A DNA stretch of 63,383 nt, filler included, from Chrysochromulina tobinii (Eukaryota), in NCBI GenBank assembly GCA_001275005.1. It is 8 parts of 8 records of this genome, joined end to end, with 100 filler letters (N's around TTAATTAATTAA, not from the genome) between each part and the next. Parts side by side here need not be neighbours in the genome. Positions count along the whole stretch, not along the records: positions 24,927 to 40,398 come from JWZX01000301.1; 7 more parts are not named here. One strand, given 5' to 3'. The notes under the pieces were generated by a model, which saw only the letters and a list, made by a program, of their open reading frames with translations, had not been told where the DNA came from and made no database searches. Shown one piece after another: positions 16,708 to 62,027 of this stretch. Each line of letters starts with the position of its first letter. The stretch's first letter is position 1. Position numbers and translations under genes: made by a program.

Positions 16708-16779
16708 CTGAGGACGGAGAGAAGGACGGAGAGAGCGTCGGGAAGGGCCTCAGGGAGGCCTAAGGGAGGCCATCCGAGG

Positions 16780-16949
16780 AGGGGCCATCCGAGGCGATCC
16801 GAGGCGCGATCACGAGGCGATCAAGAGGCGATCAAGAGGCGATCAAGAGATGATCAAGAGACCATCAAGAGGCCATCGAGAGGTCATCAAGAGGCCATCG
16901 AGAGGTCATCAAGAGGCCATCGAGAGGCCATCGAGAGGCTATCAAGAGG
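16780..16949 (-). repeat. Intronic 10-11-bp array (TGATGGCCTC/TGATCGCCTC/TGATGACCTC variants) in the OLA1 intron
   Basis: GAGGCGATCA, GAGGCCATCG and GAGGTCATCA units on +, running into the assembly gap. Confidence 0.85.
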
Positions 16950-17049
16950 NNNNNNNNNNNNNNNNNNNNNNNNNNNNNNNNNNNNNNNNNNNNTTAATTA
17001 ATTAANNNNNNNNNNNNNNNNNNNNNNNNNNNNNNNNNNNNNNNNNNNN
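16950..17049. other. Artificial contig spacer
   Basis: N44-TTAATTAATTAA-N44. Confidence 0.99.
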
Positions 17050-20076: not shown

Positions 20077-22536
20077 AGTGGCGGCAGAGAGCAGCGGCCT
20101 ATGCGCACGCACAAGCCCGCGAAGCGCATGGGCATCGACGACGTCGAGGCCGCAATGAGCCAGGCGGAGCGTCAACACCTGCGTCTCGCGCTGCGCAATT
20201 CGCAGCTGATCGACCGCATGAACGACGTCGAGCTTCCAGAGGCTCCGACCTTCTACCCGACGGTCGCCCAGTTCCAAGACCCGATCGGGTACATTGCGCA
20301 CGTGCGGCGCGAGGCGCAAGCGTTCGGCGCATGCAAGATCGTACCGCCGGACGGATGGCGCGAAAAGGCGTTCGAGCTGCCCGATTCGATGGCCTTCGAG
20401 CCACGGCTTATGCCGCTGCACAAGCTGCAGCAGGGGTGCAGCTTCCAGATGGCGCCCAGCACGACGCTCGCCGCCTTCCGCGCCCAGGCTGAGGAGATGA
20501 AGGCTGCCTTTTGCGAGCGCCACCGCGTCGGCCCGTACACGGAGAACGTTCACACGGACCCCAACGACACCCTGGCCGCCGCCGACGCCGACACCGCCGT
20601 ACATGAGGAGCGTGCGGTCAAGCGGCGGCGCCAGCAGGCAGCTAAGGAGGCGGCCGTGGCGGACGTCGTGCCGCCGGGGGGCCCGAAGTCGGTGAGCGCG
20701 GCGCAGCGGCAGGAGGAGAAGGAGCTCGAGCGCCTTTTCTGGCGCCTCGTGCGGACCGAGAGCGAGCACCTCATCGTGCCCTACGGCGCAGACCTTGACA
20801 CGTCCACCCACAGGTAGAGTCACCTTGCACGCGCATGGCCGCCGACTCCCCCCCCCAACTCCCCCCCAACCATCCCCCCCCACCGCCGCCGGTCGCCACC
20901 GCCGCCGGTCGCCGCCGCTGCTGGCCGCCGCCGCCCTGTGCGCCACCCGCTGACCAACGCCCCGCGCTCGATCTCCCGCAATCTCCCCGCAATCTCCCCG
21001 CAATCTCCCCGCAATCTCCCCGCAATCTCCCCGTGCTCCCCGCCGCTCTCGTTCGCCCCCTCGCTCACCGCCGCTCTCGTTCGTCCCCGTGCTCGCAGCT
21101 CGGGCTTCGACGGCCTTGACGGCGGCGCGTGGAATCTCAAGAATCTCGCTCGCGCCAAAGGCTCATTGCTCGACGAGACGGTCGATGTGCCGGGGGTCTC
21201 GTCGCCCTGGCTCTACGTGGGCGGCCTCTTTGGCGCCTTCTGCTGGCACACGGAGGACCTGTGGATGTTCTCATGCAGCCATCTGCATGCAGGAGCCACC
21301 AAGACATGGTACGTAGTGCCGGCAGTGGCGGCGTCCAAGTTCGAAAAGGCGACGCGCGCGCTGCTGCCCTCAGTCTTCCAGGATGCGCCCGACTTGCTCT
21401 ACCAGCTCGTCGCGATGGTCGCGCCCGCCGACCTCGAGGCACAGGGCGTGCCCGTGTACACTCTGCAACAGCGCGCGGGAGAGTTCATCGTCACTTTCCC
21501 TCGCGCCTATCACGCTGGCTTCTCTCACGGCTTCAATGTGGCAGAAGCAGTCAACTTTGCCTCGGCCGACTGGCTCCCGTTTGGGCGGAATGCGATGCAG
21601 TGCTACGTGCGCCATCGGCGAACGCCCGTCTTCTCTGTCGAGCGCCTCCTGTGGCGGCTCGCGCTCGCCACAACGCCACCCATCTCGCTTTCGACCGCGG
21701 ATTGGGTTCTGCCAGAGCTGACGGCGGTCGTCGAGGAGGAGCTCCGTAGCCGGGAGACCCTGCCCACTGGCTGCCGCCATCTGCTGCTGCTCGGTCACTC
21801 GCCGGTGGACACTGCCGTGCTCGCGCACCTCGCAGCCGCATGCAACATCGACCAGCGGCGCCAAGAAAAGGTGACGGCCCGCATCGCAAAGGAGGCGTGG
21901 CGTGAGCACGGCAAGGACCCAAGAAAGCAGCCGCTCCACAGACTCCATTGGGCTCCACCGCCCAAGGAGCACTGCGACGAGTTCTGCAGCCTGGGACGCG
22001 CGACAAATGGCTTCCAGACCTTTGAGGAGGACGCGCTCACTTGCCTTGAGTGCGGCCGCGACCTCTTCCTAAGCGGCGTCACCGCCCTCGAGCCTCCTCC
22101 AAAGAGCTCCGCGGGTGCGGGCGGCGCCGCCGCCGCCGCCGCCGCGCGCTCCACGATCGGTGTGCCACTCTCTGCGTGCCTCCAGCACGCTGATAGCCTC
22201 CTGCGCTTGTACGAGAGCGCGCGCACCGCCGCCGAGCCCCCGCCATCGGATGCCCACGGGGGCAGCGCGGGGGCAGCCGCCCTCTCCGCGGACATGGCTG
22301 TGAATTCACACCTCTCTATGGACATGGCGGTGCTTCACGCCGCTCAGGTGCTTCAACTGCACTCGGGGACGTCGGAGACGAAGGCGGAGGCGGCGGAGGG
22401 AGCCGCTGCGCGCGCCGGGCGCAGCTTTGCGAGCGAACGGCATTGCGGCCGAGTTGTCGCGTGGCAACGGCACGAGAAGCACCTTCTCGAGATGATGGTG
22501 CAACGGCTGAGCGCGCGGCTCAACGACATCCTCTGA
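19430..22536 (+). CDS. KDM5/JARID-like JmjN-JmjC histone demethylase with N-terminal RanBP2-type zinc finger; exons 19430-19728, 19815-20813, 21099-22536
   Basis: WACQVCT...CAAC; JmjN EAPTFYPTVAQFQDPIGYI...GACKIVPP; YGADL..SGF..WNLKNL; JmjC FCWHTED...RAYHAGFSHGFNVAEAVNF; partial C5HC2 finger. Both GT-AG introns restore the frame. Confidence 0.88.
20969..21033 (+). repeat. 11-bp tandem array (CAATCTCCCCG)n in JmjC intron 2
   Basis: About 6 units visible directly. Confidence 0.9.
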
Positions 22537-24826: not shown

Positions 24827-24926
24827 NNNNNNNNNNNNNNNNNNNNNNNNNNNNNNNNNNNNNNNNNNNNTTAATTAATTAANNNNNNNNNNNNNNNNNN
24901 NNNNNNNNNNNNNNNNNNNNNNNNNN
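24827..24926. other. Artificial contig spacer
   Basis: N44-TTAATTAATTAA-N44. Confidence 0.99.
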
Positions 24927-27791
24927 CCCTTCGGCGGAGCCACTCGACGAGCCTCTCGACGAGCCCGTTGTGGCGGAGGAGGATCCGGCAGCAGCCTTGG
25001 CCCAAGCGGCAGCAGCCCAGGCCGAGACGCCCCAAGATTGGCTGCCCCCCACCCCCCGCGCATTGGCGCCCATCCCACTGCTGCCCATCGTACTGCCAAC
25101 GTGGTCGCCCATGCCCGTACGCGTGCGCCACGTCATCTTTTGGAGCGCCTCGCGCACCTCCGAGATCGAGGGCAGCCGTTGGACGGCCGAGTTGTGCAGC
25201 CAGGCGAGCATCTGCGAGACTTCGTGCAGCTCCTCGAGCGACACGGCGTGCCCCGGCTCGTACGCACGCGGGTTGATGGCGAGCGACTGCACGAAATCGA
25301 GCGCGGGCACCTTGCCAAGGATCGAGCAGTAAAAGGCATCAGAGGTCATCAGGGAGGTCATCAGGAAGGTCATCAGAGGTCATCATGGGTCATCAGAGGT
25401 CATCAGAGGTCATCAGAGATCATCATAGGTCATCAGAGGTCATCAGAGGTCATCAGAGGTCATCAGTGGTCGTCAGAGATCATCAGAGGTCATCAGGGAG
25501 GTCATCATGAACCCTCACCTTGCCGAGGATCTTCGAGTGCAAATCGACGCAGTGCTCGGCGCCCCGAAGCGCGTCCGCACTTTCCATATTTGGGGCGCGG
25601 CAATGCAGGTAGTGCAGAGCGACGCACTCGTCAGAGCGCCCCTTGTAATTGAGCGGATGCACCGTCGAGAGCGGCGAGGCACACCGGCGCTGGTGCGCCC
25701 ACGCCTCGCACACGCTCTCTGCCGTCCGGAGAGGCAATCAGAGGCAATCAGAGGCAATCAGAGGCAATCAGAGGCAATCAGGGGCAATCAGAGGAGAGGT
25801 CCACGCCTCGCACACGCTCTCTGCCGTCCGGAGAGGCAATCAGAGGCAATCAGAGGCAATCAGAGGCAATCAGAGGCAATCAGAGGCAATCAGAGGAGAG
25901 GTCCACGCCTCGCACACGCTCTCTGCCGTCCGGAGAGGCAATCAGAGGCAATCAGAGGCAATCAGGGGCAATCAGAGGAGAGGTCCACGACTCGCACACG
26001 CTCTCTGCCGTCCGGAGAGGCACTGTGCCGTCACAAGAGGTCATCAGAGGCAATCAGAGGTCCTCATCAGAGCTCATCAAAAAGCAGCTCCTCACCTGCC
26101 GACCGGAGAGGCACCGTGCCGTCACCGTCCTCATACTGAGTGACGCAAGGTTCCTCGTTCATATTCTTAGGCCACGGCTCCGTGTACAGGAAAGAGGTCT
26201 GCGTGGGCTTGCCGGAGCCCATGTAGCACACGACGGGGATCGGTGGCGCACGCCAGATGTCGAGGAGCTCAAGGGAGGCATCGTACGCCGCCACCATCTC
26301 GCTCTTCGCGTCCGTGGGCGAGTACCTGACAAAGGAGGCAATCATCAGAGGTCATCAGAGGTCATTAGCCTTGCTCTTCGCGTCCGTGGGCGAGTACCTA
26401 ATGATGATGGGCGCCATCAGAGCTCATCAGATGGCAGAGCTCACCAAGATGGTGATGATAGGCGCACTCAGAGCTCATCAAGATGGTGATGATGGGCGCA
26501 CTCAGAGCTCATCAGCGCTCCTCAGCGGCACGCATTCGCCATCAGAGGCAATCAACTTACGCTTCGATTTTTCGTAAGAGACGACGCAGATCCGCGCGCG
26601 TGCCTCGATAGTACTCGGCACCAAATACGGACGCCGCGCCGTCGGCGCCCGTCGCGGCGCGCCCGCCATAGCGCGGCAGAGTTGACGCCCCGATCAGAGG
26701 TGCATCGCCTCCATGGAGCGACAAGATGGTCGTGTTGCCCCAGACGCGTTCATGGGGGAGCAGCATGAAGGCCGAGCCCATCTTGCGAGAAAAGTCACGT
26801 GTCTCTGCATTGGAGATGAGCAGATGCGCGGCGACCAGGGCAGTCGGACGCAATCAGGTATTGCAGGGTGCACGGATTGCTGCACGGACGTGTACACTCC
26901 GAGGTACACTCAGAGGTACAATCAGAGGTAGTGGGCTTCTAGGGGCGTCTGATATCAATCTTCAACAAATCGGTTCCTCACTCGGCACCTTTCGGCACGC
27001 TCGGAATGATTTGGCAATTCATCCTTCGCCACGGAGGTGCAATCAGAGGTGCAATCAGAGGTGCAAGCAGAGGTGCAATCAGAGGAGCCCTCGCCTGCAT
27101 CGGTGATGATCATTCGAGAGACCATCTCGGCGCCGGAGAGGAGGACCCGCGCGACCTGCGGCGAGCCCGCGAACGGCGGGGCGATCGCGACGAGCGCGCG
27201 CATCAGCGACGTCGTCTCCGGCCCAAACACCTTTTGGATGCAGTAGAGGATCTGAAGATTGCCGAGCGAGTGGCCAACCACAATCGCCTTGCGGTGGGCA
27301 GTGTCATTCGTGGCGAGGTGCAGCGTGCGCGCCAGATCGGCACACAGCTTATTCTCCGTCGGAGGCAGCCGCCAGTCAAAGGGAACGCCGAACAGATTCG
27401 TGCCCGCACGGAAGCCGGCGCGCTCGAGCTGCCCAATCATGTCCCAATACACCTTGGCCGTCGAGACGCACTCGCGCCCGACCTTGAGCAAGCATGCGAC
27501 ACCCTTGATGCCAAAGTTGGTGAAGTCTGGCTCGATGCGATGGCCAGGGCGGGGCGCCTTCGGATCGAGGGAGGCCACCCAGTCGAAGTAGAGCGACGCA
27601 CTCAGCGGTCCCATGGCTGCGGAGCGCTGCAGTAATCGATGTGACTCCGGAAGCCAGAGATGGCGTGACACTGTCTCGATCGATCCCGGCAAACGCACGT
27701 GCTCTCGCAGCCTGCTGCCCATAACGCCCGGCACTAGAATGACGGGTTGGCAAGCGCCTCGGGCGTTGCAAGCCGGCCCAGGCGCCGACAT
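24927..27791 (-). CDS. LCAT/group XV phospholipase A2 family acyltransferase; introns 26805-27094 (GC-AG), 26326-26560, 25719-26095, 25311-25518; 3' truncated
   Basis: PVILVPGVMGSRL, LFGVPFDWRL, VVGHSLG nucleophile elbow, IAPPFAGS, EDGDGTVPLRSAESVCEAW. All four splices restore one frame. Start may be 27791 or 27839. Confidence 0.88.
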
Positions 27792-28364
27792 CGCTTCCGT
27801 CCGACGAGATTGCGTTTCGTCTTGGTCGACTCCAATCATGATATGAATACTTTTCACGTTAATTTGCCATCTCGGCAAGACGCACGACCACCGGTCCCAC
27901 GGCACTGCTATGGCGTATGGGTTGAGGGTTCGCGCGGCCAGGGGCGAGGTCAGTTGGACGCCGCACCGGGCGGCCCGGTGGCCGGGAAAAGTCAAGTCAA
28001 GTCGATGCTCATACTCATATCAGTTGTAGTTCATACAAGGGAGGCGAACGTTCGGCCGTGTCGGCGGAGCGATTAATCGGATGACGGCGGCGCGACGTCG
28101 TCGTCGATCTCGATGTCTCGGGGATCGTCAAGACTCAAGTCCCGAAGCGCGAGGGTTAACGCGAGGGGAGCGACCGAGTCCGGCGAGATCGGCACGCGCG
28201 TACGTCGAGGCGCACGCTTAGTTATCAACGAATCAAAATCGAAATAACGAAAGCCCTTTCGGGACACGAGTTTACATGCACGTAATTCGGCGCTCCCCTA
28301 CGCTCCGAACCCGCGGAGGGGGGCGCTCGTGGCGGCGCGTCGGCACCCGGGGCACCTCTTGCTC

Positions 28365-36003: not shown

Positions 36004-37903
36004 CTACTCGCCCGGCTTGCGCTGCGCGTCGCGCCACACGTCTGACTCGAGGCGCTGTCCCGAGCCGATCTGAGCACTCTCAGTCGCTTCGACGACGGCG
36101 CGCATGCCGTCGGTTACACGGCGCAGCTCAGCGGCGGTCATGATGAAGGGGGGCATGGTGTAGAGCAGACGCCCAAAGGGTCTAAGCCACACGCCTCTCT
36201 CAACGAGCATCGCGCTCACGGTAGGCATGTGGATGGGCTCCTTCATCTCCACCACCCCAATGGCGCCCAGCACGCGCACGTCCTTGACAGCCGACGAGGC
36301 GGCCAGCGGGCGCAGCTCAGCCTCGAGCTGCGCCGAGATTGCACGCACACGCGCCTGCCAGGGGGTTGCGAGCAGCAGCTGCACGGATGCATGCGCCACC
36401 GCGCATGCCAGAGGGTTGGCCATGAAGGTGGGGCCGTGCATCAACGGCACCGGCCGCACGGCACCGCGCCCGCCCGAGGCTCCTTCGGCGACGGCATCGG
36501 TGGCGAGGGTCGCACCCATTGTGAGGTATCCTCCGGTGAGAGCTTTGCCGAGGCAGAGGATATCCGGTGCGATCCCCGCGTGGTCGCAGGCGAACAGCGC
36601 GCCAGTCCTTCCAAAGCCGGTGGCGATCTCGTCCAAGATGAGGAGCACGCCTGATGAAGGAGGCAATCAGGGAGGCGATTAGAGAGGCAATCAGGTGGCG
36701 ATCTCGTCCAAGATGAGGAGCTCGCCTGATGAGGGAGGCCATCAGACGGTCGCACAGGTCAGGCCTGATGAGGGAGGCCATCAGACGGTCGCACAGGTCA
36801 GGCCTGATGAGGGAGGCCATCAGACGGTCGCACAGGTCACAGCACAATCTCAAAATCTCAATCTCTCAAAATCTCAAAAGCCACCAGAGCCGGGCATACG
36901 AGGCACGCGGAGGCCCTCAAATGCCAGCAGAGGTCACACGAGGCAAGCACAAGCAGCGTTCGGAGCCGCTTCCATATTAGGCAAGCACAAGCAGCGTTCG
37001 GAGCCGCCTACCGTGCTGATTGCAGAGCTCTCGCACGCGCCGCAAATAGTCTGCCGAGTAGAAATGCATGCCGCCCGCGCCCTGCACGATCGGCTCGAGG
37101 ATCACCGCCGCGAGCTCGTGCTCGTGCTCGCGCAGCATCGTCGCAAACTCCTCGACGTCCTTCTCAGCACAAGGCTGCCCGAAGAGCGGAGCTGGGCGCG
37201 GCGCGAAGAGATGCTTCGCGAGCACGCCGCCAAACATCTCGGCATGCATGCCATTGACCGGGTCGCACACGGCCATCGCACCGAACGTGTCGCCGTGGTA
37301 GCCGCCGCGCACTGTCAGCAGGCGCGAGCGCCCCTCGATGCCGCGCGCGCGCCAGTACTGTAGCGCCATCTTGATCGCGACCTCGACGGCGATCGAGCCG
37401 GAGTCGCAAAGGAACACGCGCTGCAGCGGCTCGGGCGTGACCTGGACGAGCAGTTCGGCGAGCCGTACAGCCGGCCGGTGAGTCAGCCCACCGAACATGA
37501 CGTGCGCCATCGAGCCCAGCTGCTGCGACGCGGCCTCGTCCAGCTCAGGCACCGCGTAACCGTGCACGGCAGCCCACCATGAGGACATTCCGTCGATGAG
37601 CTCGCGGCCGTCCTCGAGGGTGAGCGTCACACCTGAGGCGTGCGATACCGCGAGGCACGGCACGGGCTGCGTCGCGCTGGTGTACGGGTGCCACAGCCGC
37701 CGTACATCGGCTGCAAGCAGTCTTTCGGTCGCGAGCGAGTTGTCGCGGTCAGCGTTGGCGCCGGCGGTCGCGTCGATGCGAGCGTTGAGGTACGGACACG
37801 ACCGGCTGCGGTCGGCCTGCGTGCTCAGTGTTCGGCGCGTACTGCAGCAGGGCGGTGGCCGTGCCAGCCAGCGCGCAGTCTGACGGAAAAGGTTGCGACG
37901 CAT
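36004..37903 (-). CDS. bioA: Adenosylmethionine-8-amino-7-oxononanoate (DAPA) aminotransferase, with a predicted mitochondrial presequence; intron 36651-37011
   Basis: [65 protein letters not shown] (PLP Lys), [13 protein letters not shown]. Arg-rich, acid-free N-terminus. Confidence 0.93.
36724..36839 (-). repeat. 3 x 39-bp tandem repeat in the bioA intron, each ending in an acceptor-like CCTCCCTCATCAG
   Basis: GCCTGATGAGGGAGGCCATCAGACGGTCGCACAGGTCA repeated three times on +. Confidence 0.9.
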
Positions 37904-40398: not shown

Positions 40399-40498
40399 NN
40401 NNNNNNNNNNNNNNNNNNNNNNNNNNNNNNNNNNNNNNNNNNTTAATTAATTAANNNNNNNNNNNNNNNNNNNNNNNNNNNNNNNNNNNNNNNNNNNN
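40399..40498. other. Artificial contig spacer
   Basis: N44-TTAATTAATTAA-N44. Confidence 0.99.
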
Positions 40499-43400
40499 GG
40501 GCGCCGGCGGCGCGGCGGACGGCGACTCACCGGTCGGATCCGCAAACGTGGACAGGAGCGCGTTCGTCGCGGAGTCGACGTGACCATCTGCCTCCGCGAG
40601 GGCCTTGGCCGCTCTCTCCTTGGAGAACCCCATGTCGACGAGCTGCTGGACCTTGGGCGGCAGAGCCGTTCGGGGGGAGCCGGCGAGGCGGAAGGAGCCG
40701 TTACGTGTCAAGGTGCCGCTGCGCGTCGACAGGCGCACCGGCGCTGCCGCGGGCGCGCCAGGCGCCGTCCCGGGCGCCATGGGTGCAAGCGCGCCGGCCG
40801 TCCTATCCTCGTCCTCGTCGGCACTCCCGATGAGGGCCGCGACCGCTTTGCTCAGATCATTGGCGTGAGCCTCGAGGGCGGCGCATGCCTGGTCGCGACT
40901 GAAGCCCATGTCCATCAGCCGCTTCCGTTCGGGCGGGTCGGCGTCATGCTGGGCGCCCAGCGCGCCATGCTGGGCGCCCAGCGCGCCCTCGGCGGCATGC
41001 ATCGGTGCCTGCATCGGCGCATGCATCTCGGGCGTGGGCGCGCGCATGGGCGCGGCCTGGTGCGCCGTGAGGAGCGCCGCCTCCTCGTCCTTTTGAATAC
41101 GCAGCTGATCGCGCTCGCTCTGGCGCAGCGCCGCGTGCTCATTCGCGCGCTCAAACTGCTCGTCCAGAGTGGCGTGCTCACGTGAGAGCTTGGCCACCGC
41201 GTCCGAGGCGAGGGCGCGCAGCGAGGCGTACGTGTCGGCGGCGAGGCGCAGCCGCTTGAGGTACTCCTGCTTCTCCATGCACTCTGTGTCGCTGATGCGC
41301 GCCTGTGTGAACTCGGCGTTCGTCGCGACGAGCGTGCTCAGGACACGCTCGTACTCACTCACCAAGGCTGCGGCCTCGGCCTGCACGGGCGCGAACTTGC
41401 CCAGGTGTGCACGCACCACGTCCATTGGAGGTGTGTCACCACAGTAGATGAGCGCGTTGATGAGGGACTGCCCAGGCACAGGGGCGGGGCGAGCAGGGCG
41501 AGATGCTGGGAGATGGGGCGGAGGTCAGGGGAGATCAGGGGAGATCATAGGAGATCAGGGGAGATCAGGGCCGCGAGAGGGGCAGTCTCAGTTTGGGGCG
41601 TGGATCCACTTTGGGGGGCAGTCTCAGGGGGGGGAAGGGGGGGAAGGGGGAGAAGGGGTGGGAAGGGTGCATGCCCATGCCGTGCAAGCCTGCATGAAGG
41701 CAAGCACCTGATCGTGGGCGGCACGCTGCACGAAGAGGTCGATGGGCGCGGGGGCGAGCGATCGGATGAGGTCGGAGGCTTGCTGATGGAAGGTCGCTTC
41801 CTCGTCGTTGATCTTGAGGATGATATCTCCGACGTTCACACCTGCCTTTGCCGCTGGTCCGTCGGGCTCGCACGAGGCGACACGCACGCCTTGCTCTTCC
41901 TTGGGGGTGTCGACGAGGATCATGCCTACGAGCCCGTCCGCATTACGCTCGATACGAATCGATCTCGTCAATCCGATCATTGACGAAGCGCGCAGAGTGA
42001 GCGCGTCGCGCGTCGTCTTGAGCGTCTCGAGCTGGTCGAGCTGCTCGCGCAGCGTGCGAAAGACGGGCAGCTTGGCCACAGGAGAGCCCCCCGCGTGAGG
42101 CAGCTGATCGATCAGGTCGGCCATGCTGAGCTCGAGCATGCTCAGCTCGCCTGATGAGGGAGGCAATCCATCTAATTAGGGAGGCAATCAAAGGCCATGC
42201 TGAGCTCGAGGGTGCTCAGCTCGCCTGATGAGGGAGGCAATCGAGATGCACTCAGAGATGCACGCAGCCAAGCTGGACGCCTGCCCACACGAGAGCACTC
42301 ACTCGACTCACCAGTGGCCGCCTCGGCGAATCCACTCGCCAGGTCCGCGTACAACCTCGCTGCGCAGGCGACCTTGTCCTCGGACGCGCTCAGCACGGCG
42401 CGAATGGCCGTGATGGTCGCCGCGCCGTCCGATGCGAGCAGTTCCCATTCGGGTCCAAACTCGCGCCGCATTTGGACTTCGCGCTCGTCCTCGAGCGCGA
42501 GAAGCTCGCCCACCTGATGAGGGAAGCAATCAATCGCGTCATCAGAGGTCATCCGAGGTCATCCGAGGTCATCAGAGGTCATCAGAAGTCATCAGAAGTC
42601 ATCCGAGGTCATCCGAGGTCATCAGAGGTCATCAGAGGTCATCAGAGGTCATCTCGAGAGTGTCGCCCACTGATGAGGCAGGCAATCGGGCACACTCACC
42701 AGTCTGATGAGGGAGGCAATCGGGCACACTCAGCGGCAATCATCGCTCGTCAGCAGCTCGCTCACCTCGGCCGCGCGCGTGGCGCACTGCTTGATGAGGA
42801 GCGACGCCTTGGCCACCTGATCATGGAGGCGATCAATGGCGTCATCAGAGGCAATCAGTTCTCATCGGCCACCTCCGTTCGCAATCAATGGCGTCATCAG
42901 AGGCCATCAGTGGCGTCACCAGAGGCCATCAGTGGCGTCATCAGAGGCCATTTTCTCATCAGCCACCTCCGTTCGCAGCGCAGGCACGCCGCCGTTGGCA
43001 TGCGCCGCCCCAATTGAATCGCGAAGCTCCCTTGGCAACCCCTCGCCTGTGGGGAGAGGAGGGGGGGGGCGCCGTGGTGAGCACTTGCATGCACGCCAAT
43101 TGAGTCGCGAAGCTCCCTTGTTGACCCCTCGCCTGTGGGGAAGGCGGGGCGCCGTGGTGAGCCCTCGCCTGTGTCGGCCTCCACGGCTTGCAACGCCCAC
43201 GGCAGGTCGTTGTCTCGCAGCACGCCCTCGCCGTGCGCGACCGCCTGTGCGAGCTGCTCCTGCAGCGCGCTCACGAGGGCGCGCTCGAGCTCATCGTACT
43301 CGACGAGCAGCGCGCGCGTCGCCTGGGGCACGATGAAAACGAACGGATCCTCCGTCGCTAGCAGCGGCGCGGTGAGCGCCGTCGTGGGCGTCGGCTTGGA

Positions 43401-45068: not shown

Positions 45069-46569
45069 ATGATCGCGACGCTCATCAAATGTGTAACGGA
45101 GAAGACCAGCGCCCACAGCGGCGCATCAATCGATTGGGTCGCCTTTTCCCAAGACGGGACCAAGCTTGTCTCGGGATCGGATGACACTAGAGGGAAATAC
45201 AGTAGGTGTCCCGGGATCAAAGTCTGGGATTCGGGTGCGCTGTCCCCTCAAATCGCGCCTCCTTGGCCAAAACTGACCCCTGCTGGCTTGTCTGGCAGAT
45301 GCGCTGGGGCTGTTGAGCGAGAAGACGAACGTCCACAGCGTTATCCACAGCGCGGACCTCAGCTCGGTCGCGTTCTCCCCGGACGGGACCAAGATTGTGT
45401 CGGGATCGGCTGACAGGACGATCAGAATCTGGGACTTGGGTGCGCCGCGAGCCCTCAAAATCGCCCCTCCTTGGCCAAAACTGACGACTGTTGGCTTGCC
45501 TGGCAGATGCCCTGGGGCTGTTGAGCGAGAAGACGAACGCGCACGGCTACTCCATCAGGTCGGTGGTATTTTCCCCGGACGGGACCAAGATTGTGTCAGG
45601 ATCGTCCGATGGGACGATCAGGGTCTGGGATTCCGGTGCGCCGGAGCCCTCAAAATCGACCCTCCTTGGCCAAAACTGACCCCTGCTGGCTTCTCTGGCA
45701 GATGCGCTGGGGCTGTTGAGCGAGAAGACGGACGCGCACAGCGCCCGGGTCATGTCAGTGGCATTTTCCCCGGACGGGACCAAGATCGTGTCTGGATCGG
45801 CTGACAAGACGATCAAAGTCTGGGATTCAGGTGTGCGCCGGAGCCCTCAAAATCGCCCCTCCTTGGCCAAAACTGACGACTGTTGGCTTGTCTGGCAGCT
45901 TTGGAGCTGATCAGCGAGAAGATGAATGCCCATAGCACTTATATCTTCTCAGTGGCGTTTTCCCCGGACGGGACCAAGATTGTCTCTGGATCGGGCGACA
46001 GGACGATCAAAGTATGGGATTCGGGTGCGCCGGAGCCCCCAAAATCGCCCCTCCTTGGCCAAAACTGACGCCTGTGCTGGCTTGTCCGGCAGATGCGCCG
46101 GGACTGTTGAGCGAGAAGCCGAACGCGCACAGTCTCTACATCCACTCGGTGGCGTTTTCCCCGGATGGCACCAAGATCGTGTCCGGATCGGCCGACAAGA
46201 CGATCAAAGTTTGGAATTTGGGTGCGCCGAGCCCTCAAAATCGCCCCTCCTTGGCCAACACTGATGCCTGCTGGCTTGTCCGGCACAGATGCGCTGGAGC
46301 TGGTGCTGATGAGCAAGAAGTCGAAAGCCCATAAGAGCACCGTTAATTCGGTGGCGTTTTCGCCCGATGGGACCAAGATCGTGTCGGGATCGAACGACGG
46401 GACGATCAAAGTCTGGGAAATGGTCGAGTGGTCTCGCAAAGATCATTTGATGTTCAACATCGCCACCCAGCGATTTGTCTTGCGGCTGCTGTGGCTGAAC
46501 AAGTACAGCATGAAGTTTCCTGATGATGTGCTTGATCTGCTCGTTCGAGCTTGCTTGCAAAGCAGGTGA
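45069..46569 (+). CDS. Seven-bladed WD40 protein, one repeat per exon (45069-45234, 45299-45439, 45507-45635, 45702-45830, 45899-46024, 46093-46221, 46289-46569), with a C-terminal F-box-like tail
   Basis: Repeats of H....[22 protein letters not shown]. Six phase-1 GT-AG introns of 64-68 nt restore a single frame. Confidence 0.9.
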
Positions 46570-47206: not shown

Positions 47207-50200
47207 TTAGGCTGCTGCTGCGGCCTGGACCTCCCGTTGACGCCGCTCGCGATTACGGATCGTACGCTGCAGCCAGCGCACCGCAAACTTGCGAGCCTGC
47301 TGTTCTGCGTGCTGTGCGCGGATAGAGCGACCCGCCATGCGAGCATGCAATTTGCTCAGCGTCTCCTGCCGTGTGCGCTCCTGCTGTCGCAGGCGCGCGG
47401 CCGCCTCGGCTGCCTCCTTCGCGGCCGCCTCGGCAATCGCCTGCTGCTCGTTGCGCCGCCTTGCAGCAGCGTCCCTTGCGGCCGTTGCGGCCGCCGCGCG
47501 CTGCGCCGGCGTCTCACCCTGTCTGACCGCCGTCGTCGCCACATCAGTCGGCTCGTCAGTCGCCACGTCAATTGCAAAAGAAAGTGCCATGTCAGTCGGC
47601 TCGTCCGCCGCGCACTGCACCGGGACATCGCTCTGCACGTCTGCCGCGGCCGCCACGTGCTTCGCACCCGAGTCATCCACCCCCGCCATATCCGACGCAC
47701 CATCCACATCTTCAACGTCTGCGCCGAGCTCGGTCGCGTGCGCTTCAAGGTCGATCACGTCAACCCTTGAAGCGGAGTGTGCAATTTTGTCGACCCTGTC
47801 CGCGCGGCCATCGTTGCGGCCATCCCCGCGGCTCGAACGCCCGCGCGCCCGCGATTGCAGACGCGTCGCCGCTGCCTCCTTCTCGTCCATCCCCGCGCCA
47901 CCCTCATCCGCCTGATTGCCACCCTCATCCGCCTGATTAGGGGCGTCATCCGCCTGATTTGGGGCGGCGGTCCTCGCATCTCTGCTACTGGCAAGCCGCT
48001 GCGCGTCGGCAAGCCGCTGCGCGTCGGCAAAGTGTTGCGCGTCGGCAAAGTGCTGCACGTTGGCAAGGCAGCCGCGCGCAAACGGATCAAGTATCGGGTC
48101 GTTGAGCTCGATGATCGCCTGCAGCCGCTCGAGCCCGCCACAGCGCTTTAGCTGCTCGACACACGTGATCTCGGTGCACAGGTTCTGAAGGGCACCTAGG
48201 GCGTACACCAGGGTCAGCCGGTCCTGGTCATCAGCGAAGAGGTGCGGCAACACGAGGCCGAAGGCGCCCGCCGCCCTGAGTAGCGCCTTCGTCTCCTCGG
48301 CGTGCGGGTCGACAGCCTCGCATGCAAGGTCGGCCACGAGCATGAGGGCCATCCGATGCACCTGATGAAGGAGGCAATCGTGAGTCATCAGTGATCATCA
48401 GAGGTCATCAGCCACGAGCATGAGGGCCATCCGATGCACCTCGGCTGAGGGGTTTCCAAGCAGCCCGACGATGAGCTCGACGCCGCCCGTGGCGCGCAGG
48501 CCCTCGCACAGCGCGATCGCATCGTCGCCGTAGCTGCCGTTGGCAAGCAGAGCGAGCTGGTGCAGCGCCTTGCCCTTGTCCGCCTCGCTGCTGCTGCTCA
48601 GCCGAAGAACTCCGACGAGACCCATCAGCTCCCGCGCGGGCGTCTGCACGGGGGGTAGCTCTGGTCGAGCTTCGACCGCTTCCGGAAGACGAGCGGTGCT
48701 TTCCACGGCCGTGTGCGCCGCAGCTGCTTGCATGATCGCCCATCCTCGCTTCCATTCATCCAGGTCAATGTCGCCGTTGTCGTCGATGTCGAGTTCGGCG
48801 TCGAGGCTGCTAAGCACCTCCTCCTTCACGTCGCCGCGCTGGCGCAGGTATTCCTTCATCGATTCGATCGGGATGCGGGCCGATCCCTCGGCCACGACCT
48901 TGAACAGACTCTCAGCGACCAGAAGATCCATTTCCGAGGCGGGTGGAACAGGCTCTGTTTCGCCCTTGGGCTTGGCAGACGGTGCTACGGCCACCGGCGC
49001 GGCGCCGGCGGCGGATCCCTTAGGCAGCTGCCGCGCGGGGGGGCGAAGGGCCGCTGCGGCGGAGGCGGGTGTGGCCACCGCCTGCGCGGTGCTGATTGGC
49101 AGCACGAGCGGGAGGATGCGTGGCGAGCGGGAGTGAATCTCGGAGTGTATCTCGGAGGCAAGCGGGAGGATGCGTGACGAGCGGGAGTGTATCTCGGAGG
49201 CAAGCGGGAGGATGCGTGGCGAGCGGTACACTCCCTCGGAGCCGCCGTGCACGTGGCCGAGGGGTAGGTCGAGGGGCGTGCCGTCGGAGGCGATCGGCAC
49301 GATCTGAAAGGGAGCGTACTTTCTCGTGATCGACGGCGGAGCTGTCCATGCGCCGTCGTGAGCGCCGTCGTCGCCGTCCACTACGTCCACGCTCTTCGTC
49401 CGATTGCGACATCGCTTGGACACAAAGAACCACGAGAGGAAAGCGACAGCGAGGAGGACGATCAGGCCCAGGATCGCCGCCACGCTCGCCGGCAGCTCCT
49501 CGGGAGCTACGTCGATCTGACCGTACTCGGCCGTTAAAAGGGGCATGCCCAATACGGCGCTCTCGCCCCCAGGGAATAGCCACGCGGAGGCCGCGCTCGC
49601 ACTCGCGACGGCCGGGGCGAGGGCCCCATACACAAGCGCCGCCGCCGGCACCGAGGAGACCGTGATCGTCGCGTCGATGACCATCGAGGCAGCGCCGAAC
49701 CTCAGCTGGACGGCATCGCTTGGCACGGAAGCGGTGGTGGCGATGGTGCTTTGCATGTCGCTCCGCCGCAGCTCATCGAACGCGCTCAGCTCGGCGTCGC
49801 ACACGACGCGCAGCCGGATGAGTACGGAGCGTAACGTCTCCCAGCTTCTCAAGGGCGGCAGCGTGGCCACCGTTGTCGTCGGGCGGCTGGCCTCGCCCGC
49901 CGCGCGGCAATACATCGGCTCATGGATCGTCACAGGCGGCTCTGCGCGTGTCGCAACGGCAGCCGCGCACCGCGCCGCATCGCCCTCCCAGCCAGCGCAC
50001 CCAAAGTTGACAGCAGCACGGTCGAGGCAACCATACACACGCGCGTAGCAGCTGCCGTCATTCACGGTCGCGTGCGCGTCGAAGTTGATCGCCGACGGCG
50101 TCGTGCATCCGTACCGCTCCCACCGGCACATCGAGGGCACATGCACCGTCGCCGCCGCGTTGTACGTGGCGGAGCCCCCAAAGTCGACCCTACGGCCGAC

Positions 50201-51664: not shown

Positions 51665-51764
51665 NNNNNNNNNNNNNNNNNNNNNNNNNNNNNNNNNNNN
51701 NNNNNNNNTTAATTAATTAANNNNNNNNNNNNNNNNNNNNNNNNNNNNNNNNNNNNNNNNNNNN
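51665..51764. other. Artificial contig spacer
   Basis: N44-TTAATTAATTAA-N44. Confidence 0.99.
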
Positions 51765-54216: not shown

Positions 54217-54316
54217 NNNNNNNNNNNNNNNNNNNNNNNNNNNNNNNNNNNNNNNNNNNNTTAATTAATTAANNNNNNNNNNNNNNNNNNNNNNNNNNNN
54301 NNNNNNNNNNNNNNNN
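54217..54316. other. Artificial contig spacer
   Basis: N44-TTAATTAATTAA-N44. Confidence 0.99.
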
Positions 54317-61927: not shown

Positions 61928-62027
61928 NNNNNNNNNNNNNNNNNNNNNNNNNNNNNNNNNNNNNNNNNNNNTTAATTAATTAANNNNNNNNNNNNNNNNN
62001 NNNNNNNNNNNNNNNNNNNNNNNNNNN
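61928..62027. other. Artificial contig spacer
   Basis: N44-TTAATTAATTAA-N44. Confidence 0.99.

What the first reader, a model, noticed from the sequence alone, without database searches (positions are those of the whole stretch)
25311..25518. The intronic decamer is strand-biased and looks like a ready-made splicing and NMD cassette
SEEN: ~17 units of TGATGACCTC fill this intron. In every intron that carries it, the decamer family (TGATTGCCTC, TGATGACCTC, TGATGGCCTC, TGATCGCCTC, TGATGAGCTC) reads TGAT on the host sense strand: + at 5993, 6347, 6950, 7222; - in OLA1, LCAT, bioA, BRO1, the 47-51 kb gene and WDR76. Unit junctions create CTGAT, a CURAY branch-point match. The 10-nt period puts a TGA stop in all three frames within three units. 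The common terminus TGATTGCCTCCCTCATCAG supplies a pyrimidine tract plus AG, and TCATCAG is the reverse complement of the CTGATGA that starts several inserts. INFERENCE: the repeat is self-sufficient for 3' splice-site definition and triggers NMD if retained, which would explain why insertions in coding exons are tolerated.
Basis: partly seen in the sequence, partly recalled or inferred. Interest (0 to 1): 0.72.

Follow-up and report, generated by a model that had tools for sequence, protein, structure and literature searches.

The report
Minisatellite insertions that create new introns
In a haptophyte alga, this spliced intron is a run of 10-base repeats sitting between two copies of 16 bases of its own gene, a footprint that recurs at many other repeat-filled introns and likely records an ongoing way of making new introns by pasting repeats into genes.

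Summary
The intron is real: RNA contigs skip exactly 25311-25518 (minus strand, LCAT-like gene) and it holds 17 decamer units. Sense-strand bias holds beyond the window: 128 of 134 confidently oriented repeat clusters. The 'self-sufficient cassette' reading fails: four of five unit types contain no AG, and this intron's acceptor is a copy of the upstream exon end (15/16 direct repeat across both splice sites). That exon echo is the real finding: 76 of 227 clusters lie between 12-67-base direct repeats (control 0 of 227); typically exon | duplicate beginning GT/GC - array - CCCTCATCAG | duplicate. Near-identical alleles lacking such an insertion appear at 5 of 12 sites looked up, one on a 45.8-kb contig. 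Rare antisense insertions survive in frame in coding sequence. Best reading: repeat insertion with long, variable target-site duplication creates introns, and selection likely makes the strand bias. Enzyme and template unknown; NMD untested; no empty allele found for this intron itself. The scan noted the same footprint before on other DNA of this genome (e1-2577349).

The parts
25311..25518 (-). Focal intron, 208 nt, GT...AAG, in an LCAT-like gene
   Evidence: RNA contigs of X1 and X2 skip 208 nt, CT..AC; reading frame continues HSKILGK|VPALDF
25337..25507 (-). Decamer array, 17 units (10 exact TGATGACCTC); no AG, stops in all frames, CTGAT at unit junctions
25516..25531 (-). First copy of the 16-nt direct repeat: end of upstream exon plus GTG donor
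25308..25323 (-). Second copy of the direct repeat (15/16): supplies the AAG acceptor and first 3 exon bases
24927..28019 (-). Host LCAT-like gene (runs into the assembly gap); four repeat-bearing introns
   Evidence: Pfam PF02450; RNA contigs; a >=90% cluster member is labelled Chrysochromulina tobinii LCAT
25719..26095 (-). Inferred intron: 30-nt copy of the upstream exon end (26096-26125 vs 26005-26034), then amplified array+junction units
26326..26560 (-). Intron with an older acceptor (26398), a 25-nt copy of the next exon start, more units and a second acceptor; the second unit is absent in some alleles
   Evidence: RNA joint in X1, X2, X4; P0268, P0272
26805..27094 (-). GC-AG intron with 12-mer variants of the repeat
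   Evidence: RNA joint in X1, X2, X4
36651..37011 (-). bioA intron (inferred): 32-nt copy of the next exon start (36694-36725 vs 36619-36650) between terminus copies
42151..42311 (-). BRO1-gene intron with 32-nt copy of the next exon start (42193-42224 vs 42119-42150)
   Evidence: RNA joint
42514..42765 (-). BRO1-gene intron; first 11 nt match the next exon start 10/11; ends in the terminus
   Evidence: RNA joint
42817..42966 (-). BRO1-gene intron with an internal copy of exon end plus donor
   Evidence: RNA joint
48362..48439 (-). Clearest example (inferred intron, 78 nt): perfect 29-nt duplicate starting GT (48411-48439 vs 48333-48361), array, terminus
   Evidence: not covered by RNA contigs
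7211..7293 (+). Inferred GC-AG intron bracketed by a perfect 22-nt repeat spanning AG|GC (7192-7213 vs 7275-7296)
6343..6417 (+). Inferred GC-AG intron with a 10-nt repeat spanning AG|GC and a variant array
5982..6157 (+). Inferred GT-AG intron with a variant decamer array, no clear echo
6938..7029 (+). Inferred GT-AG intron with degenerate units
16708..16949 (-). 3' part of an OLA1/YchF intron with an 11-mer array; ordinary pyrimidine-rich acceptor

Best explanation
This stretch is a spliced intron made of decamer repeats between two copies of 16 bases of the host exon, and it likely arose, like many introns of this alga, when a repeat tract was inserted into coding DNA together with a duplication of about 10-40 bases of the target site. 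Inferred steps: a free 3' end at a staggered nick or break anneals through a few matching bases to a decamer template (another array, or intron RNA), is extended through several units, often up to the terminus CCCTCATCAG, and rejoins the target upstream, leaving duplicate-array-duplicate. In exons a sense insertion, full of stops, would survive only if it is spliced cleanly: the duplicate begins with GT/GC and the insert brings the AG (commonest class), or the duplicate itself holds the AG or spans AG|GT (this intron). The AG-free array would pass 3' splice-site choice to the first AG behind it and could supply the branch point. Antisense insertions have no stops and many AGs and would persist mainly as rare in-frame peptide inserts, so the strand bias is likely a result of selection rather than a built-in cassette. 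Later slippage or unequal exchange between the duplicates amplifies or removes units. Shown: splicing, the duplications, strand bias, allele differences in predicted proteins. Not shown: enzyme, template, direction of each event, branch points, NMD.
For: Splicing with one copy of the repeat left. Direct repeats at 76 of 227 clusters vs 0 of 227 cross-locus controls; 151 of 351 arrays vs 1 of 351 and 10 of 300 array-free sites. Of 72 testable clusters with the terminus, 39 have the next exon's start copied at the intron's start, control 6 of 352; 22 of 38 copies perfect. Exons after the terminus start GT/GC in 80 of 93 cases, 38 of 47 even without a detectable echo, vs 99 of 602 after YAG in ORFs and 0 of 5 RNA-confirmed repeat-free window introns. 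Microhomology at the duplicate|array junction: >=3 nt in 7 of 15 vs 9% of controls. Alleles continuous across the site while reading into a neighbouring intron at 5 of 12 sites: EF-hand gene L006 (five proteins, 99% identical, one on a 45,771-bp contig), L025, L020, NDUFS1 L018, second unit of window intron 26326. At L025 three proteins begin at a second site 23 codons downstream, two of them with the terminus read-in, where locus DNA is empty and reads G|GTGCGC. More distant NDUFS1 relatives with apparent intron read-through elsewhere are continuous at that site (P0123, P0147). Three antisense duplicate-array-duplicate inserts lie in open frames with periods 57, 69 and 60 nt.
Against: No empty allele was found for the focal intron or the 48362 intron; 7 of 12 sites gave no informative spanning member among the at most 15 listed. 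Empty alleles are read from predicted proteins, not DNA: partly spliced RNA assemblies exist (P0173), small-k assembly could collapse duplicate-array-duplicate, and recombination between the duplicates would also give a clean empty site; at L006 the empty state occurs on two haplotypes. Two thirds of clusters show no echo. A few of the 76 echoes are repeat-internal or Kelch repeats. The microhomology test used 15 of 38 cases and its mean (3.5) falls to 2.6 without one repeat-internal case. No transposase or reverse transcriptase was found near arrays in the ORFs scanned (150 of 405).
Confidence: 0.62

Rival explanations
1. The inserts are a true non-autonomous non-LTR retroposon (SINE-like): a short repeat RNA, possibly the 3' end of spliced introns, is copied at a nick by a LINE-type reverse transcriptase, giving variable target-site duplications. 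This is a specific version of the best explanation.
For: Variable duplication length (10-50 nt), one fixed end (CCCTCATCAG) and one ragged end with microhomology; variable TSD and truncation are typical of non-LTR insertion (own knowledge); about 5% of classified introners are non-LTR (PMC12130899, passage).
Against: 189 of 268 clusters lack the fixed end; mirror cases carry a donor and take the acceptor from the duplicate; no body beyond repeats; no partner enzyme found.
Confidence: 0.15
2. The intron positions are old; the arrays expanded inside them and the exon echoes arose later, by local slippage or by break repair templated on spliced mRNA that copied across the exon junction. Empty alleles would be losses.
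For: Local amplification clearly occurs (L006, L020, L069; unit-number differences between strains; polymorphic second unit in intron 26326). Both mirror classes contain a junction identical to spliced mRNA. Loss by recombination between duplicates is easy.
Against: GT/GC exon starts also after echo-free termini (38 of 47) but not after repeat-free introns (0 of 5); a new acceptor at a site empty in most alleles (L025); duplications with arrays where no splice junction exists, including antisense in-frame ones; distant NDUFS1 relatives continuous at the site.
Confidence: 0.14
3. One reading: the decamer is itself a ready-made 3' splice-site and NMD cassette, which is why exon insertions are tolerated.
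For: Strand bias; CTGAT at 17-40 nt from acceptors; stops in all frames; NMD-assisted intron gain is argued for Drosophila (PMC2809761, passages).
Against: No AG in four of five units; focal acceptor comes from exon copy; terminus in 79 of 268 clusters; internal termini skipped; the TGATGA/TGATGG terminus is predicted to fold a 7-bp hairpin pairing CTGAT with the AG (-6 to -7 kcal/mol); NMD function is questioned in E. huxleyi, where 89% of inspected introns showed reads (PMC4028052, passages).
Confidence: 0.06
4. The echoes are assembly artefacts at repeats.
For: Short-read assemblies of tandem repeats are error-prone; the window is stitched from contigs.
Against: Same geometry in many independent metagenome assemblies; 16 of 38 copies differ from their partner; gene calls reading into the same echoes recur on many contigs; spliced RNA removes exactly one copy.
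Confidence: 0.03

Closest known systems
Introner-like elements of Symbiodinium and Polarella glacialis, classes 4/5 and 6/8/10 (bioRxiv 10.1101/2020.10.14.339549; parts 1-2 of 4 read) and Gozashti et al. 2022 (PMC9860276; passages and supplement rows)
   Same: Element brings the 3' splice site, the 5' splice site is taken from the target-site duplication; downstream exons start with a donor-like dinucleotide; several splice geometries from one family.
   Different: Their duplications are fixed at 3-9 nt and the elements are alike end to end; here duplications are 10-50 nt and variable, the body is a minisatellite of variable length, and the 5' end is locus-specific. That screen removed low-complexity families; C. 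tobinii is in its genome list and its name occurs nowhere else in the stored (cut) file. The Chrysochromulina MAG introner it shows has a 4-nt TSD and carries the 5' site.
Intron gain by staggered double-strand-break repair in Daphnia pulex (PMC4202315, passages; review PMC3443670, passages)
   Same: Polymorphic new introns with a direct repeat of the adjacent exon at the opposite intron end, and secondary internal duplications.
   Different: Daphnia repeats are 4-12 nt and fillers are of mixed or unknown origin; here repeats have a median near 20 nt and the filler is one genome-wide repeat family with a recurrent terminus.
Intron gain by tandem duplication of an AG|GT site (PMC3443670, passages)
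   Same: In the focal intron both splice sites come from a duplicated AG|GT.
   Different: Only 16 nt are duplicated; the body of the intron is foreign repeat, not duplicated exon.
10-11-bp intronic tandem repeats of Emiliania huxleyi (Read et al. 2013; recalled, paper not held)
   Same: As recalled: short tandem repeats concentrated in haptophyte introns.
   Different: I could not check that text; I do not recall it describing target-site duplications or intron gain.
NMD-enabled intron gain (Farlow et al. 2010, PMC2809761, passages)
   Same: New introns rich in premature stops.
   Different: Not tested here; every array of three units has stops, so the 3n test is uninformative.

Membership tests
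Introner / ILE (Gozashti 2022 definition) | Many introns similar in sequence up to both splice boundaries | tested here: not met
   5' ends are locus-specific exon copies; only the array and 3' terminus are shared
Introner / ILE (Gozashti 2022 definition) | Not low-complexity or microsatellite sequence | tested here: not met
   Body is a decamer array; such families were filtered out
Introner / ILE (Gozashti 2022 definition) | Splice site recruited from a target-site duplication, precise removal | tested here: met
Introner / ILE (Gozashti 2022 definition) | Fixed short TSD (3-9 nt) and/or terminal inverted repeats | tested here: not met
   Duplications 10-50 nt, variable; only a 7-nt complementarity between unit and terminus
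Introner / ILE (Gozashti 2022 definition) | Empty sites in related alleles | tested here: inconclusive
   Candidate empty alleles at 5 of 12 sites from predicted proteins; none for the focal intron; RNA, loss or assembly collapse not excluded
Non-LTR retroposon (SINE-like) | Variable-length TSD with microhomology at one junction | tested here: met
   (15 testable junctions)
Non-LTR retroposon (SINE-like) | Defined element body and an autonomous reverse-transcriptase partner | tested here: inconclusive
   No body beyond repeats; no RT among 150 of 405 flanking ORFs or; no genome to search
Staggered-break repair intron gain (Daphnia type) | Direct repeat of adjacent exon at the opposite intron end, above background | tested here: met
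   76 of 227 vs 0 of 227; array-free sites 10 of 300
Staggered-break repair intron gain (Daphnia type) | Dependence on end-joining repair | not testable with these tools
   needs genetics
Tandem duplication of AG|GT | Intron body consists of duplicated exon | tested here: not met
   16 of 208 nt are duplicated
NMD-enabled intron gain | Retained intron carries premature stops | tested here: met
   9/8/16 stops per frame
NMD-enabled intron gain | Working NMD that removes retained transcripts | not testable with these tools
   No genome; paper search for haptophyte + UPF1 + nonsense-mediated gave 0

The most novel reading that the evidence does not exclude
A self-propagating minisatellite with no element body is an active intron factory: existing introns template new ones by microhomology-primed copying of their repeat-rich 3' ends (possibly from spliced intron RNA) into staggered breaks with 10-40-nt duplications, segregating today in lake and culture populations, a class invisible to introner screens.
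Probability: 0.4. Interest if true: 0.85.

Novelty: new variant of a known kind. Interest (0 to 1): 0.68.

Why it matters
How new spliceosomal introns arise is a long-standing question, and most recent gains have no known source. Here a culturable alga appears to carry many young, partly polymorphic introns whose donor sequence (a decamer array) and insertion footprint (long variable duplication with microhomology) are both readable, with antisense in-frame insertions as a built-in control for selection. That makes the mechanism testable by long-read population sequencing and repair or reverse-transcriptase genetics. It also matters for annotation: a public gene model in the LCAT cluster reads into these introns (P0280).

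Tried and rejected
No whole genome was available, so no genome-wide count. Viral contigs held neither pattern. The prokaryote genome scan gave two hits: a 1.4-kb contig with array and terminus in a Gemmatimonas MAG, likely contamination, and an isolated array in a Desulfobacter chromosome. A donor-motif test of orientation was positive but blunt (82 vs 26 of 349 within 30 nt) and was replaced by codon and Pfam tests. The terminus pattern also matched the opposite strand at 33 of 268 clusters, likely because CTGATGAG occurs in arrays. A search for paralogous empty sites among my loci returned only tandem copies of the same unit. Three strain pairs showed unit-number differences but no intron presence/absence. 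A search for longer relatives of the exon after the focal intron found none; exact look-ups for the exon before it were absent. Intron length modulo 3 was flat. Depth in array bins and unspliced BRO1 contigs were not used: contig depth cannot rank expression and DNA may be present. Lack of RNA cover on the 47-51 kb gene is no evidence. The filamin-like look of the plus-strand gene is recalled; Pfam gave no such hit. Paper searches for a description of this repeat or footprint in haptophytes found none among the listings; subscription papers and bioRxiv supplements were not visible, and the one supplement read was cut.

Full report
Setting. The window is GC-rich eukaryotic DNA stitched from contigs by seven N-spacers. 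The ADP/ATP carrier at 29.9-30.8 kb has Phaeocystis and Prymnesium proteins as closest named relatives (83-84%), and a member of the 90% cluster of an LCAT exon is labelled Chrysochromulina tobinii: a prymnesiophyte haptophyte.

The observation. RNA contigs of runs X1 and X2 skip 25311-25518; X1, X2 and X4 skip 26326-26560 and 26805-27094. The focal intron has 17 units, stops in all frames and CTGAT adenosines 29, 39 and 51 nt from its end. In 11 RNA-confirmed window introns 33 units are sense and 2 antisense. In the loci plus window, 268 array clusters were defined; of 216 testable, a codon model trained on window genes (leave-one-out 83 of 85) sense and 27 antisense, with a margin 128 and 6, and 57 of 59 with one cluster per locus. 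Of 29 clusters next to a Pfam-oriented ORF (first 150 of 405 ORFs scanned) 26 agree; two disagreements come from one weak DUF hit opposite an AMP-binding gene and one is real. The strand bias is therefore real but not absolute.

The focal intron does not end in the 'common terminus'. Its last 13 nt plus the next 3 repeat the end of the upstream exon plus GTG (15 of 16). Its only AGs are at nt 4 and nt 207, and four of five unit types have no AG on the sense strand. Such exon echoes are general: in the window at 7211, 6343, 25719, 26326, 36651, 42151, 42514 and 48362, and at 76 of 227 clusters against 0 of 227 cross-locus controls (median 20 nt; a few are repeat-internal or Kelch repeats). At array level the figures are 151 of 351, 1 of 351 and 10 of 300 array-free sites. 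Only 79 of 268 clusters carry the terminus; among 72 testable, 39 read exon | duplicate - array - terminus | duplicate, 4 follow an older acceptor, 29 show no echo (control 6 of 352). With a wider definition (93 termini) duplicates are 10-50 nt, 22 of 38 perfect, and exons after the terminus start GT/GC in 80 of 93 cases, 38 of 47 even without echo, against 99 of 602 after YAG in ORFs and 0 of 5 repeat-free RNA-confirmed introns. Mirror cases exist in which the insert starts with a donor and the duplicate ends in AG (L023, L032, L059, L077). At the duplicate|array junction 7 of 15 testable cases share 3 or more bases with the repeat lattice against 9% of controls. Removing the intron restores open frames with sensible motifs.

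Gain or remodelling. I looked up predicted proteins for twelve echo sites that returned clusters. At the L006 EF-hand gene five proteins, 99% identical to the spliced product, run across the site yet read into the next intron, one on a 45,771-bp contig; eight others show the intron. Single such proteins exist for L025, L020 and NDUFS1, and two LCAT proteins lack the second unit of intron 26326. At L025 three proteins start 23 codons further on, two of them with the terminus read in, at a site that is empty in the locus DNA and reads G|GTGCGC. Two more distant NDUFS1 relatives with apparent intron read-through elsewhere are continuous at the site. Seven sites were uninformative, and nothing was found for the focal intron. 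These are gene calls, not DNA: partly spliced RNA (P0173), assembly collapse and loss by recombination between duplicates can mimic empty alleles; at L006 the empty state sits on two haplotypes. The long contig and the extra L025 site are the strongest items.

Why sense. Antisense units are stop-free and AG-rich. Three of 218 clusters are antisense duplicate-array-duplicate inserts in open, coding-like frames with periods 57, 69 and 60 nt (L014, L116, L130; the frame filter itself favours 3n), and L027 has an antisense array inside a 638-aa TIR ORF. So insertion with duplication happens in both orientations and without splice sites; the bias is most simply selection (inference). An RNA-coupled contribution is not excluded.

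Mechanism. Best reading (0.62): microhomology-primed copying of a decamer template into a staggered nick or break, with return to the target upstream; exonic sense insertions persist when duplicate and insert together give GT/GC and AG; the AG-free array passes acceptor choice to the first AG behind it and may give the branch point; later slippage between duplicates amplifies units (L006, L020, L069; strain differences). Enzyme and template are unknown. Against the cassette: internal termini are skipped in three RNA-confirmed introns, a repeat-free intron without YTRAY is spliced, and the terminus can pair CTGAT with the AG in a predicted hairpin. NMD was not tested; lengths are flat modulo 3.

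Comparison. It works like dinoflagellate introners that take the donor from a target-site duplication (bioRxiv 10.1101/2020.10.14.339549, parts 1-2 read) but fails the family's tests of end-to-end similarity, complexity and fixed short TSD (PMC9860276, passages). It resembles Daphnia staggered-break gains (repeats 4-12 nt; PMC4202315, passages) with longer repeats and one filler family. The C. tobin genome paper mentions introns once (PMC4580454, passages). That E. huxleyi has intronic 10-11-bp repeats is recalled (paper not held). Seven searches (listings only) showed no description of this footprint; subscription papers were not searched.

Verdict. Observation largely right, interpretation partly. 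A new variant of insertion-driven intron gain, with candidate polymorphism and an antisense control added here. Interest 0.68.

Noticed in passing
window 3798-3897, 16950-17049, 24827-24926, 40399-40498, 51665-51764, 54217-54316, 61928-62027: Seven identical 100-base spacers (N runs around a six-frame stop linker): the window is joined contigs, so genes across spacers need not be neighbours.
   Followed up: yes
L004:175-1700 and L037: Element with about 20-bp terminal inverted repeats and subterminal repeats at two different loci; carries a decamer array, and about 380 bp of its interior differ between the copies. No Pfam hit. A DNA transposon could carry arrays around.
   Followed up: partly
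L014:1255-1294, L116, L130, L027:1207-1246: Antisense arrays read through in frame as short peptide inserts (such as EAIRGNQRQS) inside open frames.
   Followed up: partly
L134:1009-1097: A 1.4-kb contig in a Gemmatimonas MAG has array plus terminus inside a radical-SAM gene: likely algal contamination of that bin.
   Followed up: partly
L133:3001-3040: Four or five similar decamers in an intergenic-looking stretch of a Desulfobacter chromosome; probably independent.
   Followed up: no
window 7862-7902 vs 7278-7319: Inverted 42-bp copy (88%) of an exon junction region, preceded on the minus strand by degenerate units and a terminus.
   Followed up: partly
window 41508-41570 and 20971-21033: Other short-period families: a CTGATC-type 10-mer in the RNA-confirmed intron 41468-41707 and an 11-mer between the two Jmj ORFs.
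   Followed up: no
window 45215-46418: WD40 gene built of about 197-bp exon-plus-intron tandem units; two 67-68-nt introns confirmed by RNA; an 82% similar copy lies in L062.
   Followed up: partly
P0280 (cluster of window 26070-26345): The public LCAT gene model reads into intron 26805-27094, skips an exon and stops in the next intron, unlike the RNA-supported structure.
   Followed up: partly
window 42139-42311: RNA-library contigs of X1, X2 and X4 cover parts of this BRO1 intron unspliced; retention, pre-mRNA or DNA not told apart.
   Followed up: no
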